A stretch of 50,396 nucleotides of DNA from a plasmid. The stretch lies in the sequence record CP155420.1; one strand, given 5' to 3'. A program made the position numbers. The number at the start of each line of letters is the position of its first letter. The stretch's first letter is position 1. This document shows positions 12,001 to 18,000 of the stretch, in pieces.

Positions 12001-15000
12001 TATACCAAAAAAACATTAAAGGAAACTAAAAGGATATACGATGCCACAAAAAAGAATTTATCTTTATGTTCCATTTAAAGACAAAGAAAAAGTAAAATCA
12101 TTAGGGGCAATGTGGGATGATAAAGAAAAAAAATGGTTTGCTCCAAAAAGCTTAGATAAAAATATTTTCTCACAATGGCTTTATCCGCACCAAAATAAAG
12201 AATTTTCATTTGATGAAAATGAAGTTTTAACTACTTTTAAATCTGCTTTAGAAAATCAAGGTTTAATCGTTGATGGCTTACCTATCATGGATGGCAAAAT
12301 CCACAGAGTAAAAACAACAACAGATAAAGGCAGAGAAATGAGTGGAGCTTATAGTGGATTTTTAGATGAATACCCTGCTGGTTTTATTCAAAATTTTAAA
12401 ACAGGTATTAAAGAAAATTGGAAAATGCCTTTAGAAAATGCAAAACAAAACATTGTAAGTTATCAAACTCCTAGTCAAAAAAGATTACATAATTCTACAA
12501 GAAATAATACGAAACAAGACATTTTAGAGCTTCAGCAAAAAACAGCATTAAAAATTGAAGAAGAATATAATCAAGCTAATTGGGCTCATTCAAATCATCC
12601 TTATTTAAAGAAAAAAGGTTTTAGTGAAAACTTTTATCTTAAGCAGGATAACAAAGGTTCTTTACTTATTCCCTTAAAAGATGAAAATGGCAAATTATGG
12701 TCTGTGCAAAGAATATTCCCAAATGGTGATAAAATTATTGGTGTAATTAAAACTAAAGAAGAAAAAGAGCAAGGCATTGAATATTCTGCAAAAAAATCTG
12801 GATGTTTTCATCTAATAGGTGCAAAAAACCTAGAATATTGCAAAGAATTTATCATAGCAGAAGGCTTTGCTACTGCTGCAACTATATACAAAGCACTCAA
12901 TAAGCCTGTAATAATGGGTATAGATGCTGGAAACTTATCAAAAATCGTTGAAACCCTAAAAAACAAATTTCAAAACACTCCTATTACCTTAATAGCCGAT
13001 AATGATAAAAAAAGAGAATTAAAAGGTTTTTCTAATGTCGGAGTGGAAACTGCAAAAGAAATTCAACAAAAATTTTCAGATATTAAAGTTATTATTCCAA
13101 AAATCAGCAATCAAGAAGCAGAACAAGGAATAAGTGATTTCAATGACATTTTTTTAAATAAAGGGCTTGATGAAGTCAAAAAACAATTAAATTTCATTGA
13201 TTTTCATAATAAACTTAAAGCTTTTAAATCTATGGAAAAAACACAACCTGAAAAAGAGATAACTAGACAATAATAGTTACTCTTTGTAATCATAATATAT
13301 AATAATATATAAAAAATATTTTTTATATATTATTAGTTAATAATAGTATATTATAATTACTATAAATATACAAAAAAAGGATTAAAAATGAAAAATACAA
13401 TCAAACTAGCTTTATTAGGTGCAGTTATTACTGGTGTTTTTTCTGCTTGCTCTTCAGAGCCAAAAACAGTGCAATATTACGAAGATCCAAAAAATGCTAC
13501 AGAATTAGAAGCTAAAATCAAAGAATGTGATAAAAATGCCAATTCTGCACAAACTGATACAGAATGTGCAAATGCTTATAAGGCAAACTATTCTAAGTCG
13601 TTACAAAATTTTCATAACGAAGCCATTTCTGATGAAGAAGCCACAAAATATTTAAAAAAGAAATAGCAAATGAATTTCTTTCAATTTTTAGGCGAAAGCA
13701 TACAACAAATTGTTGATGTAATAAGTTCTGTTTAGATTTTTAGCCCTTATAAAAGGGGTTAAAATGTCTACAAATTACTCAATATACTCATAATTTCTTA
13801 AATATTTTTGAAAATATATTATTTGGTCAATCAGTAAAGTACCCTAATTCTTTTTCGATAAGATCATAAACTTCCTTATGCTTACTATGATATATTTTTT
13901 TATTTTGACACGCTTTCTTTAAAAAATCACGAATTTTGTCCTGGTATTCTTTCGGATATTGTCTTACCACATGATCGTGTTCATAATCTTGGGAGCAATT
14001 AAAAAGATTATCATCTTTACTTTTATCTCTTGCCATTTTATTCCTTTCGAAAATAAGTTTTAATTTAGTATTATAAAACTAATGATTTTAAAGCAATATT
14101 AATAAATTTATCTATAAAAATGTCTGTATTATATATAAATAAATATTAATATATAATAGTTATTTTTAGTAATTAATAATATACATTAATTATATATTTT
14201 CTTTATATAATGCTTAAAATCTCTCATTAAATCATCTAAATTATTATATCTATTTTTTACATTATCATTAATTCCTTTTTCTAAAAAGTCGCATTTAGTA
14301 TTTATCAAATTTGTTCTGCCTGTAGCTATAAAATATAAAACTCTACTTAAAGCATAGATTTCATCACTCTTATCATAATTATTAAACCCTTTTTTCTGCA
14401 ATCTTGAAATTTCATTTAAACTTCCTTTTATTTCTGTATTTTCACTTGTTAACTCGCTATTTAATTCTTTTACAAGACCAAAATCAGAAATTTTTATTAC
14501 TACAATATCATCATATTGTTTTATCAAAATATTTTTAAGACTTATATCTCTATGTAATATATTTTTATTCCATAAAGTTTTAATACCTTTTATTATTTGA
14601 ATACCTAAACTAATTCTTTCATCGGATGAAAGTTTTGAATTATTTTTATGAATATATTCTTTTAGAGTAAAATCAACATATTCCATAATATATTCTTTTT
14701 TATTCTCATCTAAAGAATATACTTTTAAAATATATGGATTATTTATCTGTTTCATTATATTAAATTCTTTAATAAATCTTTGAATTTCTTTATCATTAAC
14801 TTTTTTGTTTAATTTTTTTAAAGCAAAATAATGTTTATAAAATTCATCATAATATTTATACACTTTTGCATAAGACCCATCACCAATCAAATCTAAAGAA
14901 TAATTTTTATTTACTTCTGGATTGCTAATAGAATTCAATTTAACAAATATAGGAATTGCTTCATAAATAGTTATTTTTTGCATTCCCAGTGGTATTTCAC

Positions 15001-18000
15001 TACCTTCACTACTTTTTAAAAAATTTAAACATTGTTTAAAAACATTATAATAATATTCATCTATCCAAAAAGATAATTCACTATCTTTAAATTCTTTTTG
15101 CAAATATAAAGCTAATTCTATATTGAATTTTAATTTTCTACTGTCATCAGCCCAATAATGATTATTACTATTTTCAGTAGATGGAAGACGACTATTCATC
15201 TTTTTAAAACATTCTATGATGTTATTATGTAAAGTTGAAAGAACTAATTTCAATTTTCCATTTTCAAAACAAAAATACAAATCTGTATAAGCTTGTGATA
15301 ACGATGATTCTAAATCTTTATAAGCATTAATCAAATGGTTATTTACTATAGGATCCATTAATATTTAACTTATTTTTCCAAATAATTTTGTAAAAATATT
15401 AGAATGTCTTTACAAATTAAAAATTTAAAAGCAAGGAATAAAAAACTTACAGAACTTAAAATAATCATAACTATTAAATCAAAATACAATTTCTCTATAT
15501 TTCTAAGTTTCTTATAATTTAAATACTTAATAAAATTCTTAAATTTCATCATCAGTCCAAAATAATTTTTTAAATTATAACTTCTTTTTGGAGTTATTCA
15601 AAATTATATTTTATAATTTTATATAAAAGTTCAAAAATTTTAATTTTTGATTTACCTTTTAATATATTATAAATTTAATGAAATTTAGAATTTAGTAACT
15701 ATTCTATTTATGTCAATGTATCTTTTAAAGTCCCTATTTTCCATATGGGGTTTCCGAAAAAATGTCAAAAACTATTCTATTTATGTCAAAAACTATTCTA
15801 TTTATGTCAATTTTTTAATAACTTATGAGTGATTGTATGCTGATTTTGCTGACATAAATATAATAAACTATTCTATTTATGTCAATTTTATATTTTAGAT
15901 GAAATTAGTATTTTTCAAAAAAATAATTTTTTATATAGATATAATAAGTATTGACATAAATATAATAATTTTACTATAATTACTTTATGAAAAGTTGTTA
16001 ATTTGCACTAAACTATTCTATTTATATCAATTTTTGGGGTGTAAATTAATTGTTTGTTCTATTTATGTCAATAGTAAGGAATTAAATGTTGCTAAATATT
16101 ATCATTGAAAAAGATCGAGATAGATATTTTGCACGCATTCTAGAGCTTGAAGGTTGCGTGTCGCAAGGAAATACCTATGAAGAAGCTTTAGCTAATATAA
16201 AAGAAGCTGGAGAGCTTTATTTAGAAAGCCTTGCAAATGAAGAAAAAAGGATTATTGAAAACAAAACAACTTCAATTATTCCAATGGTTTTAGCAAATGC
16301 CTGAATTGCCAAGAATGACTGCAAAAAGAAGCAGATTACACTCTAAAACCATAAAACAACTATTTGAAATTATAGAAGTAGCAAAGGATTAAAAATGCCT
16401 AAACGCAATACTATTAATACAATTACACTTGGAATTTTTAGCGATGAGAATGTTTCTGTAATTTGTGAAGACACTATTAAGCTAGAAAGAGGTTCTGTAG
16501 CTGTATTAAGTGGCAATAGTGAAGTAGGAAAATCTTTTTTAGCTTTAAAAGTATGTGCTAATGCTATTAATGATGGTTTAAAACCTTTTTTTTGGAGTAT
16601 AGAAGATAAGAACAAAGCAATTTTAGAACGCATTAAAAATATAGAAAATTTTATCCTTTTAATAGTTTAGAATTTGAGTTTTCAAATGAACTTCCAAAAA
16701 TTGATAAAGAACCTATGGATAGCTTAAAAGAAGAACTTAATGAGTTAGCAGATTGTGATTTAATCGTTCTTGATACTTTTAGTGCATTCTTCTCAATCTT
16801 GGGCTTTAAAGATCAAAATAATCAAAATGATGTGCAAAATTTCTTTAATATTTTAACAGATGTAGCAAAATCAAACAATCAAGCTATTTTATTACTTCAT
16901 CACTTAGATAAAAAAGGCGAAAGTCTTATGGGTAGCTCTGTAATTATAAATGCCCCTAGACTTGTTTATAAACTCTCATTTCAAAAAGGAGAAGATAAAA
17001 GCTCTACAACTTATCGCTTACTTGAAGTGTTAAAAGATAATAATAATATTAATGCTGGCGAGTTTCAAAAAACAATTAAAGTATTACAGAACTCTAGTAT
17101 TGATGAACCTTTAATTAAAGATGTAAAAGTAGAAAATATTGACAATCATACTTTAGAAATTATTAATAAAAAAGATATTTCTGCTGTAAGTGTTAATGAT
17201 TTAGCAGAAGGTTATGTAACAATGAATGAAAATAGAGGTGTTTTTTATTTAAGCTCACGAAAACTTGCTGATTCTAATTTTTATAAGTACTTTAAAGAAA
17301 ATGATAATAAAATAGAATTTGGAATGCTTGGTGCAAATGGTTCATCATATGCTATTACTCTTAAAATTCTTTGCTAACGCAAACACATAGAAGTATTTTA
17401 GATGCTCTATTTTTATATATCAAAAAAAATGTAGATACAAGTGTTATTAAAAAATATCAAGAAAATTTTGGGATATGGAAGTAAGATTAGAGCCTTATAA
17501 ATTCTTAAAACAATATCTTAATAAAGCTCCTAGTAATTATTCTTGGTTAAAACAAAAATTTACAGAAATTTCTCGTTTTGCATATGATTTAGCCTTTACG
17601 CAAAATATAGAAGATAAAGATAAAAAAACAATTACACAAAGAGATAAAGGGATTTTAATGTTTGATTCTGTAGAGCGTATCACAAAAGAAAATGGCGTGA
17701 TTGTATCTGTATTTGTATTGACAGTTCGTAGGGAATATATCAAAAGGCTTGAAACAGAATCTACACTTTCTTATGATGATGACTTGTCAAAAATACTCAT
17801 TGATTTAAATTCTTTAGTCGCACAGGATTTAATCAGATTTTTAACAAGTTTTCCTGATAAAAAAATTCTTAGTTATAGTGAGTTTTGTGAAATTAAAGCT
17901 TATAGACTTTATAAAGAAAGTTCTATTATTTCGAAACAAAAGAAAGAGATTGTTAAATTAAAAGATAAACTTATAGAATTTGGAATTAATGTTTATGGCA

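What the first reader, a model, noticed from the sequence alone, without database searches (positions are those of the whole stretch)
14186..15552. Hanks-type Ser/Thr kinase operon on the plasmid (small TM protein, kinase, 69-aa protein)
All hallmark kinase subdomains are intact (Gly loop, VAIK-like Lys, HRD catalytic loop, DFG, subdomain IX), preceded by a ~150-aa unknown N-terminal domain. Eukaryotic-like kinases are not a normal part of conjugation backbones. Known plasmid or phage-borne examples act in abortive infection (Stk2-like) or as injected effectors. It lies next to an Abi_2-like gene and a HicB-like gene, consistent with a defence or addiction islet.
Basis: partly seen in the sequence, partly recalled or inferred. 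Interest (0 to 1): 0.7.

Follow-up and report, generated by a model that had tools for sequence, protein, structure and literature searches.

The report
Accessory defence-type kinase on Campylobacter plasmid
A Campylobacter tetracycline-resistance plasmid carries an intact eukaryotic-like protein kinase with an unknown N-terminal domain, sitting at a swap site that holds a known anti-phage system in sister plasmids, so it is probably an untested phage-defence gene, but it does not form the three-gene operon first proposed.

Summary
The kinase is real. ORF 14186-15358(-), 390 aa, matches Pfam Pkinase (E 3.7e-30). K181, E198, D271, N276 and DFG are conserved across a family that is only 29-64% identical. 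Residues 1-145 form a confidently modelled four-helix bundle (pLDDT 91.5) with no match in Pfam, NCBIfam, PHROGs, PADLOC, PDB or BFVD. It is rare (176 clusters in 1.84 billion proteins) and almost always fused to this kinase.

The "operon" is not supported. The 60-aa "TM protein" is a truncated copy of an 85-89-aa pTet backbone ORF. The 69-aa ORF has its own ribosome-binding site, is separated from the kinase by backbone-derived DNA, and its homologs elsewhere lack kinases. The "Abi_2-like" neighbour has no HMM support.

The defence reading is supported indirectly. The kinase occupies a variable site between eexN and hicB, and 59 of about 225 plasmids carry it. Sixteen others carry fused PARIS (AriAB) at that site and retain a remnant of the kinase 3' end. 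Homologs lie beside type IIG restriction enzymes in Campylobacter chromosomes, as opposite-strand morons in prophages, and on Lactococcus dairy plasmids. It does not qualify as Stk2, PD-T4-6, MAD6 or PglW. Its function has not been tested.

The parts
14186..15358 (-). Kinase gene (390 aa; RefSeq WP_002808969.1, 'protein kinase family protein')
   Evidence: ORF listing. Pfam Pkinase E 3.7e-30. 100% identical to P0001, which is seen on about 1000 contigs. RefSeq annotation.
14924..15358 (-). N-terminal domain (residues 1-145): a family-specific four-helix bundle and putative sensor or regulatory module. Conserved motifs are MNxRLP, AxxSRxL (S73 invariant) and FLxxSGGSxIP.
14204..14893 (-). Hanks-type kinase domain (residues 156-385). 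K181 is codon 14816-14818, D271 is 14546-14548 and D292 is 14483-14485.
   Evidence: Closest structures are S. aureus PknB/Stk1 4eqm and M. tuberculosis PknB 1mru, matching the kinase domain only.
14190..15379 (.). Kinase cassette as defined by homology breakpoints with 'empty' pTet plasmids. It holds the kinase ORF plus only 21 nt upstream, at about 19% GC.
   Evidence: blastn breakpoints. Composition.
15370..15552 (-). 60-aa ORF: a C-terminally truncated remnant of a backbone 85-89-aa membrane ORF (WP_002844160.1-like). It is not a dedicated kinase partner, but the kinase is probably transcribed through it.
   Evidence: Alignment with the full-length backbone ORFs shows 92% identity to about residue 56, then divergence. 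Present at 90-95% identity in plasmids without the kinase. Not annotated in RefSeq.
15574..15601 (-). Candidate sigma-70-type promoter (TTGAAT-16-TATAAT) in backbone DNA upstream of the truncated ORF, and the likely source of kinase transcription (inferred)
   Evidence: Consensus scan. The cassette itself has only 21 nt upstream of the ATG.
14127..14189 (.). Backbone-derived segment between the kinase and the 69-aa ORF. In PARIS plasmids the homology runs on to 14247, so they keep the last codons of the kinase as a relic.
   Evidence: 86% identity to pAR-0415, and 87% over 14127-14247 to pTHJ067_1, where the relic reads FKHYIKQIYN*.
13827..14036 (-). 69-aa ORF (WP_002809302.1, hypothetical), lying within a separate 401-nt insertion (13726-14126). 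It has its own RBS (AAAGGAATAAAATG). It is linked to the kinase only within this near-clonal plasmid lineage.
   Evidence: Its homologs at 55-59% identity sit in contexts without a kinase.
13388..13666 (+). eexN (entry-exclusion lipoprotein), the left flank of the variable cargo site
   Evidence: RefSeq annotation. Left homology ends at 13725.
16086..16304 (+). hicB antitoxin gene, the right flank of the variable site beyond the iteron region. hicA is internally deleted in this plasmid.
   Evidence: PF15919 E 7.1e-8. hicA is intact in PARIS-type plasmids. A 108-nt gap in the window relative to L009. tblastn of HicA gives only 37% identity.

Best explanation
The gene is stand-alone, horizontally mobile cargo that most likely protects the plasmid's host against phages or other invading DNA. 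It would do so in the manner of the known single-gene defence kinases Stk2 and PD-T4-6.

Proposed mechanism. The gene sits in a cargo hotspot of the pTet backbone, between eexN and the iteron/hicB region. It is probably transcribed from the promoter of the backbone ORF that it truncated. The N-terminal four-helix domain would hold the kinase inactive and act as the specificity or sensor module, recognising an infection cue such as a phage protein. On activation, the kinase would autophosphorylate its activation loop (conserved Thr304). It would then phosphorylate host and/or phage proteins, arresting growth or aborting the infection.

What is shown: intact and conserved catalytic residues; a conserved but faster-evolving N-domain that has been exchanged by recombination; accessory status; cargo swapping with PARIS at the same site; and mobile-element or defence-island contexts for homologs.

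What is inferred: kinase activity itself, the trigger, the substrates, the abortive-infection outcome and the promoter.
For: Catalytic competence. K181, E198, HRD, N276 and DFG are conserved across members that are 29-64% identical. dN/dS is 0.17-0.41 for the kinase domain and 0.43-0.57 for the N-domain.

N-domain as specificity module. Mean pairwise identity is 29%, against 44% for the kinase domain. Between C. peloridis and C. lari, kinase-domain dS is 0.05 but N-domain dS is 0.75, which means the N-domain was exchanged by recombination. The N-domain occurs almost only fused to this kinase.

Hotspot. Of about 225 pTet-type plasmids, 59 carry the kinase. Sixteen carry fused AriAB/PARIS at the same site (PADLOC E 1.9e-113). 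The sampled remainder (pAR-0415, p15516C-2) has only the 85-aa ORF there. PARIS plasmids keep a relic of the kinase's last codons.

Homolog contexts. Campylobacter chromosomal homologs (62-65% identical) abut a full-length type IIG REase-MTase (1938 bits), with AbiL or an Mko-like helicase nearby. Neighbours of 21 diverse genomic members are enriched for recombinases, transposition genes, relaxases, DNA MTases/REases and CBASS E1-E2/JAB. About 18 IMG/VR viral contigs carry full-length members. In 9 of 17 of these the kinase is the lone gene on its strand. The Bacillus phage PHBA67-T copy is likewise solitary on the opposite strand. Twenty Lactococcus dairy plasmids carry it, and on the one inspected (pEPSC1) it lies next to a serine recombinase, with an Abi family protein about 6 kb upstream.

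Precedent. Stk2 is an abortive-infection kinase on a mobile element (PMID 27667697, cited in PMC11470126). A Ser/Thr kinase was among the single-gene systems recovered in E. coli (PMC9519451).
Against: There is no experimental evidence for this family at all, and the literature found only lists the gene as an accessory 'protein kinase gene' (PMC6145009).

PADLOC hits to mad6, PD-T4-6 and Stk2 cover only the generic kinase domain. Their scores are close to Pfam Pkinase, and PD-T4-6 models are known to hit housekeeping kinases (PMC11514479).

No partner is conserved across the family, and no trigger is known.

In Campylobacter chromosomes the kinase always has RM and pentapeptide partners that are missing on pTet. 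The plasmid copy could therefore be an incomplete system.

The catalytic-loop Lys is absent throughout the family (HRDISxxN), so activity and substrate class are uncertain.

Guilt by association at a hotspot shows that the gene is cargo. It does not show what the cargo does.

NG86 dN/dS values are unreliable at about 20% GC.
Confidence: 0.5

Rival explanations
1. Orphaned or regulatory piece of a larger restriction-linked system. In Campylobacter chromosomes the kinase works with a type IIG restriction-modification enzyme and one or two large pentapeptide-repeat proteins. The pTet copy is that kinase detached from its partners. It would then be either a non-functional hitchhiker, or a kinase acting in trans on the host's chromosomal type IIG or pentapeptide proteins. 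Such action could, for example, modulate restriction to the plasmid's benefit.
For: Every Campylobacter chromosomal locus examined has the kinase followed after 33-38 nt by a pentapeptide-repeat protein. Where the upstream region was called, a type IIG enzyme lies upstream, abutting or overlapping the kinase in C. lari and C. peloridis, with a pentapeptide gene between them in C. coli (L004-L007, L012). The pTet gene is 79% identical in DNA to those copies. The cassette contains only the kinase ORF plus 21 nt. Kinases coupled to methyltransferases have precedent in MADS and in BREX type 2/Pgl (PglW model in NCBIfam).
Against: Outside Campylobacter, family members are solitary and have heterogeneous neighbours, so the kinase does not generally need these partners. 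The pTet ORF is intact and at least 99% identical in DNA (96.9-100% as protein) across the 59 plasmids from several countries and hosts. Between the pTet copy and its chromosomal homologs dN/dS is below 1, which does not suggest decay. Nothing shows that the kinase phosphorylates RM enzymes.
Confidence: 0.17
2. Anti-defence or establishment factor for the plasmid. The kinase is expressed in the new host after conjugation and phosphorylates and disarms recipient defence proteins, as phage T7 kinase does for phages.
For: The site lies about 3.5-5 kb from the relaxase-proximal intergenic region, on the side carrying a Toprim primase. This is plausibly the leading region (inference by analogy with MOBP plasmids). 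Leading regions are enriched for anti-defence genes (PMC11541004). A phage kinase broadly disarms defences (PMC13645617).
Against: [quoted passage not shown] T7-kinase relatives have a DPV motif in place of DFG and a different architecture, while this protein has a canonical DFG. The alternative cargo at the same site is a defence system, PARIS. Homologs also occur in chromosomal defence islands and in prophages as lone opposite-strand genes, an arrangement that suggests lysogeny-expressed morons. oriT and the transfer polarity were not determined.
Confidence: 0.12
3. One reading: a three-gene operon (TM protein, kinase, 69-aa protein) acting as a defence or addiction module, with the small proteins as membrane effector and antitoxin or regulator.
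For: All three ORFs are on the minus strand and close together. The 69-aa ORF and the kinase each occur in 59 PLSDB plasmids. The kinase is probably co-transcribed with the 60-aa ORF, because the cassette brings no promoter of its own.
Against: The 60-aa ORF is a truncated backbone gene that is present, at full length, in plasmids without the kinase. The 69-aa ORF lies in a separate insertion flanked by backbone sequence and has its own RBS. Its homologs have no kinase nearby. No kinase homolog examined elsewhere has a 69-aa partner. The matching counts of 59 come from one near-clonal lineage (at least 99% identity), so they do not show functional linkage. PARIS plasmids carry the kinase relic but no 69-aa ORF.
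Confidence: 0.05
4. Eukaryote-directed effector: a kinase delivered to host cells, for example through the plasmid's type IV secretion system, to manipulate signalling.
For: The fold is eukaryotic-like, and the plasmid encodes an MPF_T type IV secretion system.
Against: Family members occur in free-living and environmental bacteria, dairy lactococci, soil Bacillus phages and actinomycetes. No secretion signal or effector-type partner was seen. The contexts are mobile-element and defence contexts.
Confidence: 0.03

Closest known systems
Stk2 (Staphylococcus epidermidis abortive-infection Ser/Thr kinase; Depardieu et al. 2016, PMID 27667697)
   Same: Both are single-gene Hanks-type kinases carried on a mobile element (stk2 lies within SCCmec). 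Both have a non-kinase N-terminal region ahead of the kinase domain. The kinase domain aligns to the PADLOC Stk2 model (E 1.8e-33; protein 147-386 to model 121-356 of 500). The proposed logic is the same: a sensor-gated kinase causing abortive infection.
   Different: Stk2 model positions 1-120 and 357-500 are not matched. The N-domain here is therefore unrelated at the sequence level, and there is no Stk2-type C-terminal region. The score is no better than for the generic Pkinase, mad6 or PD-T4-6 models. The catalytic loop is HRDISxxN. No trigger comparable to PacK is known.
PD-T4-6 (single-gene Ser/Thr kinase defence from the E. coli functional selection; Vassallo et al. 2022, PMC9519451)
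   Same: It is a stand-alone kinase reported as a defence gene. Several PADLOC PD-T4-6 models match the kinase domain (best E 1.9e-34).
   Different: In all PD-T4-6 models the kinase sits at the N-terminus (model positions about 8-230) and is followed by C-terminal extensions, which is the reverse of the order here. The PD-T4-6 models are non-specific and also pick up housekeeping PASTA kinases (PMC11514479).
MAD6 of MADS, and PglW of BREX type 2/Pgl (kinases embedded in methylation-based defence systems)
   Same: The best PADLOC hit is mad6 (E 8.5e-36). The Campylobacter chromosomal homologs of this kinase are tightly linked to a methyltransferase-containing type IIG enzyme, which echoes the kinase-methylase coupling.
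   Different: NCBIfam MAD6 scores 65.6 bits against a cutoff of 460, and PglW scores 24 against 990. No mad7/mad8 or pglX/Y/Z genes lie near the pTet gene. MAD6 and PglW are much larger multidomain proteins.
PARIS (AriA/AriB) at the same pTet site
   Same: It occupies exactly the same eexN-hicB cargo site in 16 sister plasmids. It is a mobile, abortive-infection-type defence often carried by mobile elements (PMC11464382, abstract).
   Different: The proteins and mechanism are entirely different (ABC ATPase plus Toprim nuclease). The relationship is positional and is not one of homology.
Housekeeping bacterial Hanks kinases (PknB/Stk1/PrkC)
   Same: They are the closest solved structures and the best NCBIfam hit for the kinase domain (4eqm, 1mru; NF033483, 107 bits).
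   Different: The score is far below the cutoff (107 against 450). The protein has no transmembrane segment or PASTA repeats, the kinase is C-terminal instead of N-terminal, and the gene is accessory, rare and borne on mobile elements.

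Membership tests
Hanks-type (eukaryotic-like) protein kinase superfamily, Pfam PF00069 | Profile match above the gathering threshold | tested here: met
   105.6 bits against a cutoff of 31.7; residues 156-385
Hanks-type (eukaryotic-like) protein kinase superfamily, Pfam PF00069 | Catalytic residues: Gly-rich loop, beta3 Lys, alphaC Glu, HRD Asp, catalytic-loop Asn, DFG Asp | tested here: met
   G159xG161, K181, E198, D271, N276 and D292 are invariant or at least 90% conserved in 42 to 45 members
Hanks-type (eukaryotic-like) protein kinase superfamily, Pfam PF00069 | Ser/Thr-type catalytic loop HRDLKxxN (Lys at D+2) | tested here: not met
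   The loop is HRDISLKN here. The family consensus is HRD[ILV]S..N, with no Lys at D+2 in any of 42 members. This is a family signature whose consequence is unknown.
Hanks-type (eukaryotic-like) protein kinase superfamily, Pfam PF00069 | Phosphotransfer activity | not testable with these tools
   Needs an autophosphorylation or substrate assay
Stk2 abortive-infection kinase | Full-length similarity to the Stk2 model, including its N- and C-terminal regions | tested here: not met
   Only model positions 121-356 of 500 are aligned
Stk2 abortive-infection kinase | Activated by a phage protein and causes abortive infection through broad phosphorylation | not testable with these tools
   Needs phage challenge and phosphoproteomics
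PD-T4-6 | Architecture: N-terminal kinase followed by a C-terminal extension | tested here: not met
   The kinase aligns to model positions about 8-230 of models that are 292-510 long, while in the query it lies at residues 150-385, after a 145-aa N-domain
PD-T4-6 | Specific profile match that discriminates it from generic kinases | tested here: inconclusive
   Best score 117.5 bits, against 105.6 for Pfam Pkinase and 122 for mad6. The models are known to hit housekeeping kinases.
MADS (MAD6 kinase) | NCBIfam equivalog score, plus mandatory mad7 and mad8 neighbours | tested here: not met
   65.6 bits against a cutoff of 460. The neighbours are eexN, a 69-aa ORF, a truncated ORF and hicB. MAD6-8 are mandatory per 10.1101/2023.03.30.534895.
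BREX type 2 / Pgl (PglW) | NCBIfam equivalog score, plus pglX/Y/Z neighbours | tested here: not met
   24.2 bits against a cutoff of 990. No such neighbours.
T7 kinase-type anti-defence kinases | DPV motif in place of DFG | tested here: not met
   Canonical DFG in all family members. The DPV signature is described in PMC13645617.
PknB/Stk1 PASTA kinases | NCBIfam equivalog score; N-terminal kinase plus TM plus PASTA repeats | tested here: not met
   107.3 bits against a cutoff of 450. No PASTA hit in Pfam.
Defence-hotspot cargo of a mobile element (operational category) | Variable presence at a fixed backbone site that alternatively carries known defence systems | tested here: met
   59 plasmids carry the kinase, 16 carry AriAB/PARIS and the sampled remainder is empty, all at the eexN-hicB site. 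A kinase relic lies in the PARIS plasmids.
Defence-hotspot cargo of a mobile element (operational category) | Demonstrated protection against phage or foreign DNA | not testable with these tools
   Needs experiments

The most novel reading that the evidence does not exclude
This is a member of an uncharacterised family of single-gene anti-phage kinases carried by mobile elements. The family is defined by a new four-helix N-terminal sensor domain that can be exchanged by recombination, and by a catalytic loop lacking the canonical Lys (HRDISxxN). It is spread across Campylobacter conjugative plasmids, Lactococcus dairy plasmids, Bacillus and Mu-like prophages, and defence islands in at least six phyla. 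In Campylobacter chromosomes the same kinase has been recruited into a previously undescribed composite system with a type IIG restriction-modification enzyme and large pentapeptide-repeat (possibly DNA-mimic) proteins.
Probability: 0.4. Interest if true: 0.65.

Novelty: new variant of a known kind. Interest (0 to 1): 0.45.

Why it matters
pTet plasmids are the main vehicle of tetracycline resistance in Campylobacter jejuni and C. coli. If they also carry interchangeable anti-phage cargo (this kinase, or PARIS) at a fixed hotspot, resistance plasmids and phage resistance would spread together. That matters for phage-based control of Campylobacter in poultry.

More generally, kinase-based immunity in bacteria rests on very few characterised examples. 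A compact 390-aa family with a distinct and apparently swappable sensor domain would be a tractable model for how a kinase senses infection. The family is also present on industrial Lactococcus plasmids and in Bacillus prophages. The tight linkage of its Campylobacter chromosomal relatives to type IIG restriction enzymes and pentapeptide proteins offers a lead on how phosphorylation might be coupled to restriction.

Tried and rejected
1. The word-indexed protein search with the N-domain alone returned only Campylobacter fragments. The exhaustive HMMER search was needed.

2. The search for related loci with the N-domain alignment failed because no stretch was conserved enough. The full-length alignment worked, but its probe (K[ILV][SA]DFGL[VAI]K) also returned generic kinases. 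Only loci whose match covered the N-domain were used.

It was rerun without that row.

4. Foldseek against AFDB50 was unavailable, so N-domain fold relatives among predicted structures were not explored.

6. PADLOC names (mad6, PD-T4-6, Stk2) were considered as family assignments. They were rejected on coverage, architecture and NCBIfam cutoffs.

7. The 'Abi_2-like' neighbour has no HMM support.

8. The terminator scan found none in 13300-16400, so transcript ends could not be inferred.

9. The idea that the 69-aa protein is an antitoxin or partner was rejected on comparative grounds.

10. Literature searches for a described pTet or lactococcal kinase defence found nothing specific.

Full report
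WHAT THE WINDOW IS. The window is a Campylobacter jejuni/coli pTet-type conjugative plasmid. The 3.1-kb region around the finding matches 225 plasmid records, 224 of them Campylobacter and mostly MOBP/MPF_T conjugative. The plasmid is very AT-rich, and the kinase region is the most extreme part of it at about 19% GC, against 26-33% for most of the backbone.

THE OBSERVATION. ORF 14186-15358 on the minus strand encodes 390 aa. Pfam places a protein-kinase domain at residues 156-385 (PF00069, E 3.7e-30, 105.6 bits against a cutoff of 31.7). I aligned the protein with 41-44 full-length relatives that are only 29-64% identical to it. In that alignment G161, K181, D271 and N276 are invariant (D292 also, among the 42 rows). 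G159, E198, H269, R270, F293 and G294 are at least 90% conserved. So this is not a decayed pseudokinase by the usual criteria.

Two departures from the textbook pattern run through the whole family. The catalytic loop is HRD[ILV]S..N (HRDISLKN here), and no member has the Ser/Thr-kinase Lys at D+2. There is also no clear APE motif. A conserved Thr (T304) sits in the activation loop, which is the only low-confidence stretch of the structure model.

RefSeq already annotates the gene as 'protein kinase family protein' (WP_002808969.1). One paper lists 'the protein kinase gene' as present in some pTet plasmids, without comment on function (PMC6145009).

THE N-TERMINAL DOMAIN. Residues 1-145 match nothing in Pfam, PADLOC, PHROGs or NCBIfam, and no PDB sequence. 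An exhaustive HMMER search of 1.84 billion cluster representatives found only 176 clusters at E up to 0.001. Nearly all full-length hits are 385-410 aa with the domain at the N-terminus, so the domain is essentially dedicated to this kinase.

AlphaFold2 models are confident, both for the full-length protein (pLDDT 92.1, pTM 0.75) and for the domain alone (pLDDT 91.5, pTM 0.87). The domain is a bundle of four long helices: 3-15, 34-55, 70-89 and 101-113. An extended, conserved linker (FLxxSGGSxIP) leads from it into the kinase N-lobe.

THE 'OPERON' DOES NOT HOLD UP. Querying the three ORFs separately against PLSDB gave these counts: the kinase in 59 plasmids, all at least 99% identical; the 69-aa ORF region also in 59 plasmids, all likewise at least 99% identical; and the 60-aa ORF region in 75. 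Sixteen of those 75 match at only 90-95% (one at 95-99%), and in the two I inspected (p15597A-2, pTHJ067_1) the site holds PARIS in place of the kinase.

The 60-aa 'TM protein' aligns with an 85-89-aa ORF found in kinase-less pTet plasmids. It is 92% identical up to about residue 56 and then diverges. blastn places the homology breakpoint at 15379/15380, which is inside that ORF and 21 nt upstream of the kinase ATG. So this ORF is a backbone gene truncated when the kinase cassette arrived. RefSeq does not annotate it. Because the cassette brings essentially no upstream sequence, the kinase is probably transcribed from the backbone promoter of that ORF. A TTGAAT-16-TATAAT match lies at 15601-15574. 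This is an inference.

The 69-aa ORF lies outside the coordinates given in the finding. It has a good ribosome-binding site of its own (AAAGGAATAAAATG). It sits within a separate 401-nt insertion (13726-14126), and a 63-nt segment homologous to empty backbones (14127-14189) separates it from the kinase. Its homologs at 55-59% identity lie next to LytTR regulators, a 149-aa ORF or a DUF6119 protein, and never next to a kinase. Conversely, none of the kinase homologs inspected has such a partner. The matching counts of 59 come from a single near-clonal lineage, so they say nothing about function.

The 'Abi_2-like' gene (11300-11959) has no Abi hit in any library, and it is part of the conserved backbone. 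HicB is real, but hicA carries a 108-nt internal deletion in this plasmid.

A CARGO HOTSPOT WITH SWAPPED CONTENTS. The interval between eexN and the iteron/hicB region exists in three states. The first is 'empty', holding only the 85-aa ORF (for example pAR-0415 and p15516C-2). The second is the kinase plus the 69-aa ORF (59 plasmids). The third is a 502-aa protein annotated DUF4435 (16 plasmids).

That 502-aa protein is a fused AriA-AriB, which is the PARIS anti-phage system (PADLOC AriAB E 1.9e-113; Pfam AAA_21 plus DUF4435). The PARIS plasmids also retain homology to window 14127-14247 directly upstream of ariAB. This includes a recognisable relic of the kinase's last codons (FKHYIKQIYN*). 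PARIS therefore replaced the kinase in a kinase-bearing ancestor. This is the strongest contextual argument that the site is used for defence cargo.

WHERE ELSE THE FAMILY LIVES.

(a) Campylobacter chromosomes. Homologs 62-65% identical (79% in DNA) occur in C. lari, C. peloridis and C. coli. They sit in a tight array with a type IIG restriction-methyltransferase, which gives a full-length match to a PADLOC REase_MTase_IIG model (1938 bits). One or two pentapeptide-repeat proteins of 590-675 aa complete the array, and AbiLi/AbiLii or an MkoC-like helicase lies nearby.

(b) Twenty-one genomes from Melainabacteria, Clostridia, Cloacimonadota, Elusimicrobia, Actinomycetota, Bacillaceae and Prevotella. 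The pooled neighbours are enriched for resolvases (5), integrases (4), Mu-transposase/TniB (3), relaxase/MobC/NikA (2), D12 and N6/N4 DNA methyltransferases (4 and 2), DpnII and AlwI endonucleases, and CBASS-type E1-E2/JAB (2). No partner is conserved across the family.

(c) Phages. Bacillus phage PHBA67-T encodes a 36%-identical full-length copy that stands alone on the opposite strand. About 18 IMG/VR contigs encode full-length members among genuine phage genes: terminase, major head protein, invertase/integrase and endolysin. In 9 of 17 of them the kinase is the only gene on its strand between oppositely oriented neighbours, which is the classic moron arrangement. pTet shows the same thing, with the kinase on the minus strand and the surrounding backbone genes on plus.

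(d) Plasmids. Twenty Lactococcus dairy plasmids, plus Priestia, Paenibacillus, Geobacillus and Sarcina plasmids, carry full-length relatives. In the one Lactococcus plasmid I inspected (pEPSC1) the gene follows a serine recombinase, and an Abi family protein lies about 6 kb upstream. The lactococcal antiphage literature I could search does not describe a kinase system.

EVOLUTIONARY SIGNAL. Nei-Gojobori estimates among the four Campylobacter genes give dN/dS of 0.17-0.41 for the kinase domain and 0.43-0.57 for the N-domain. Across the family, mean pairwise identity is 44% for the kinase domain and 29% for the N-domain.

The most informative comparison is C. peloridis against C. lari. Their kinase domains are nearly identical (dS 0.05) while their N-domains are as diverged as between species groups (dS 0.75). 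The N-domain has therefore been exchanged by recombination onto a constant kinase. This is the behaviour expected of a specificity or sensor module. One caveat is that these estimators are biased at about 20% GC.

MOST LIKELY FUNCTION AND MECHANISM. I commit to the following at roughly even odds. The gene is stand-alone, mobile defence cargo. The N-domain gates the kinase and recognises an infection cue. Activation leads to activation-loop autophosphorylation (T304) and then to phosphorylation of host and/or invader proteins, giving growth arrest or aborted infection. This matches what has been shown for Stk2 (PMID 27667697, as cited in PMC11470126).

What has been shown is the anatomy, the conservation, the hotspot and swap, and the contexts. 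Activity, trigger, substrates and phenotype are all inferred.

RIVALS.

(i) The pTet copy is a detached piece of the Campylobacter type IIG-kinase-pentapeptide module, either inert or acting in trans on host restriction. The invariable linkage in Campylobacter chromosomes supports this. Against it are the solitary state of the gene everywhere else and the intact, highly conserved plasmid ORF.

(ii) An anti-defence kinase working in the recipient. The position is plausible, because the site is near the putative leading region. However, the gene has the wrong orientation relative to what is reported for leading-region anti-defence genes (PMC11541004). It lacks the DPV signature of T7-type kinases (PMC13645617). 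It also shares its site with a defence system.

(iv) A eukaryote-directed effector. The family's distribution in dairy, soil and free-living bacteria argues against this.

COMPARISON WITH KNOWN FAMILIES. The protein works most like Stk2 or PD-T4-6, but I do not file it under either.

PADLOC hits to mad6 (122 bits), PD-T4-6 (117.5) and Stk2 (114) all cover only the kinase domain, and they score about the same as generic Pkinase (105.6). The Stk2 model's N- and C-terminal regions are unmatched. PD-T4-6 models have the opposite domain order, and they are known to hit housekeeping PASTA kinases (PMC11514479).

All NCBIfam equivalogs fall far below their cutoffs: PknB 107 against 450, MAD6 66 against 460, and PglW 24 against 990. 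MADS requires mad7 and mad8, which are absent here.

NOVELTY AND VERDICT. The gene is already annotated as a kinase, and kinase-based defence is a known kind. What is new is the family: a dedicated and apparently swappable four-helix N-domain, a Lys-less catalytic loop, and a broad distribution on mobile elements. Also new are the hotspot on pTet with a kinase/PARIS swap, and the link to type IIG restriction and pentapeptide proteins in Campylobacter.

I rate it a new variant of a known kind, of moderate interest (0.45). It is a good, testable candidate, but the supporting evidence is contextual only. Part of the original finding (the operon and the Abi_2 neighbour) was wrong.

Noticed in passing
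window 15697-16030: Six copies of a 20-bp iteron-like repeat, TTGACATAAATAGAATAGTT: four exact and two with 1-2 mismatches, one of them inverted. The expected number by chance is 0.04. They lie in the intergenic region between the truncated ORF and hicB. 'Empty'-type pTet plasmids have repeats at the same positions with a consistently different sequence (about TTGACTTAAATGTAATGATT). This suggests replicon or regulator specificity subgroups, possibly an oriV or binding sites for the downstream AAA ATPase.
   Followed up: partly
window 16395-18185: In p20827L the 598-aa AAA-family ATPase gene is intact. In the window it is split into three ORFs by three 1-nt deletions in homopolymer runs (near 16649, 17363 and 17466), with no substitutions at all. 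This pattern looks like long-read homopolymer sequencing error and not like true pseudogenisation. Other homopolymer-dependent frames in the window may be affected in the same way.
   Followed up: partly
window 16297-16389: hicA is intact next to hicB in PARIS-type pTet plasmids. In the window, and in other kinase-type plasmids, it carries a 108-nt internal deletion, leaving hicB as an orphan antitoxin gene.
   Followed up: partly
L008 704-2212; L009 3374-4882 (p15597A-2, pTHJ067_1): Sixteen pTet-type plasmids carry a fused AriA-AriB (PARIS) gene, annotated only as 'DUF4435 domain-containing protein', at the eexN-hicB site. I found no literature noting PARIS on Campylobacter resistance plasmids.
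   Followed up: yes
L005 4240-11236; L012 2268-11122; L003-L007: A conserved Campylobacter chromosomal array: a type IIG REase-MTase (about 1250 aa), the kinase (389-391 aa) and one or two pentapeptide-repeat proteins of 590-675 aa. The genes abut or are separated by fewer than 40 nt, apart from a 133-nt gap before the kinase in C. coli. The pentapeptide proteins have no PADLOC match. This may be an undescribed composite restriction-linked system. In L003 no gene is called in the approximately 3.9 kb upstream of the kinase, so the RM gene there may be disrupted.
   Followed up: partly
L003 8001-9170 vs L005 8001-9170: The C. peloridis and C. lari kinase alleles have nearly identical kinase domains (dS 0.05) but highly diverged N-domains (dS 0.75). 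This is a recombinational swap of the N-terminal domain.
   Followed up: yes
L095 6001-7278 vs L097 807-3102: Homologs of the 69-aa protein flank another small variable site in metagenomic contigs. Between the 69-aa gene and a conserved 94-aa gene lies either a 149-aa ORF or a 529-aa DUF6119 protein. This hints that the 69-aa gene marks or borders cargo sites, or is itself small mobile cargo.
   Followed up: no
L015 7653-7967; L017 7677-7988; L023 7611-7988: In three Melainabacteria/Gastranaerophilales genomes the kinase immediately follows, on the same strand, a gene of about 105 aa. One copy has weak similarity to the Mu Mor transcription activator (E 3.8e-4). The pooled neighbour scan across all 21 genomes also found Mu-transposase/TniB-type genes, though I did not trace them to these loci. 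This suggests carriage on Mu-like prophages or transposons.
   Followed up: partly
L178 6266-8092 (Lactococcus cremoris pEPSC1) and 19 other Lactococcus plasmids: Full-length family members (37% identity) occur on dairy Lactococcus plasmids. On the one inspected (pEPSC1) the gene lies directly downstream of a small serine recombinase. Small serine recombinases (resolvases/invertases) were also the commonest neighbours in genomes and phages, so they may mobilise the gene.
   Followed up: partly
window 40001-45000: A block with much higher GC (0.39-0.48, against 0.19-0.33 elsewhere), which is consistent with acquired cargo such as the resistance determinant of pTet plasmids. I did not examine it.
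   Followed up: no
window 18189-18641: A 150-aa minus-strand ORF with a weak, sub-threshold DUF4760 match (E 2e-4, 21.9 bits against a cutoff of 25). It lies next to a 63-aa ORF and a serine recombinase gene (18938-19552). In p20827L the corresponding ORF is a slightly different length, and in p15516C-2 it is absent. This may be another small variable region.
   Followed up: no
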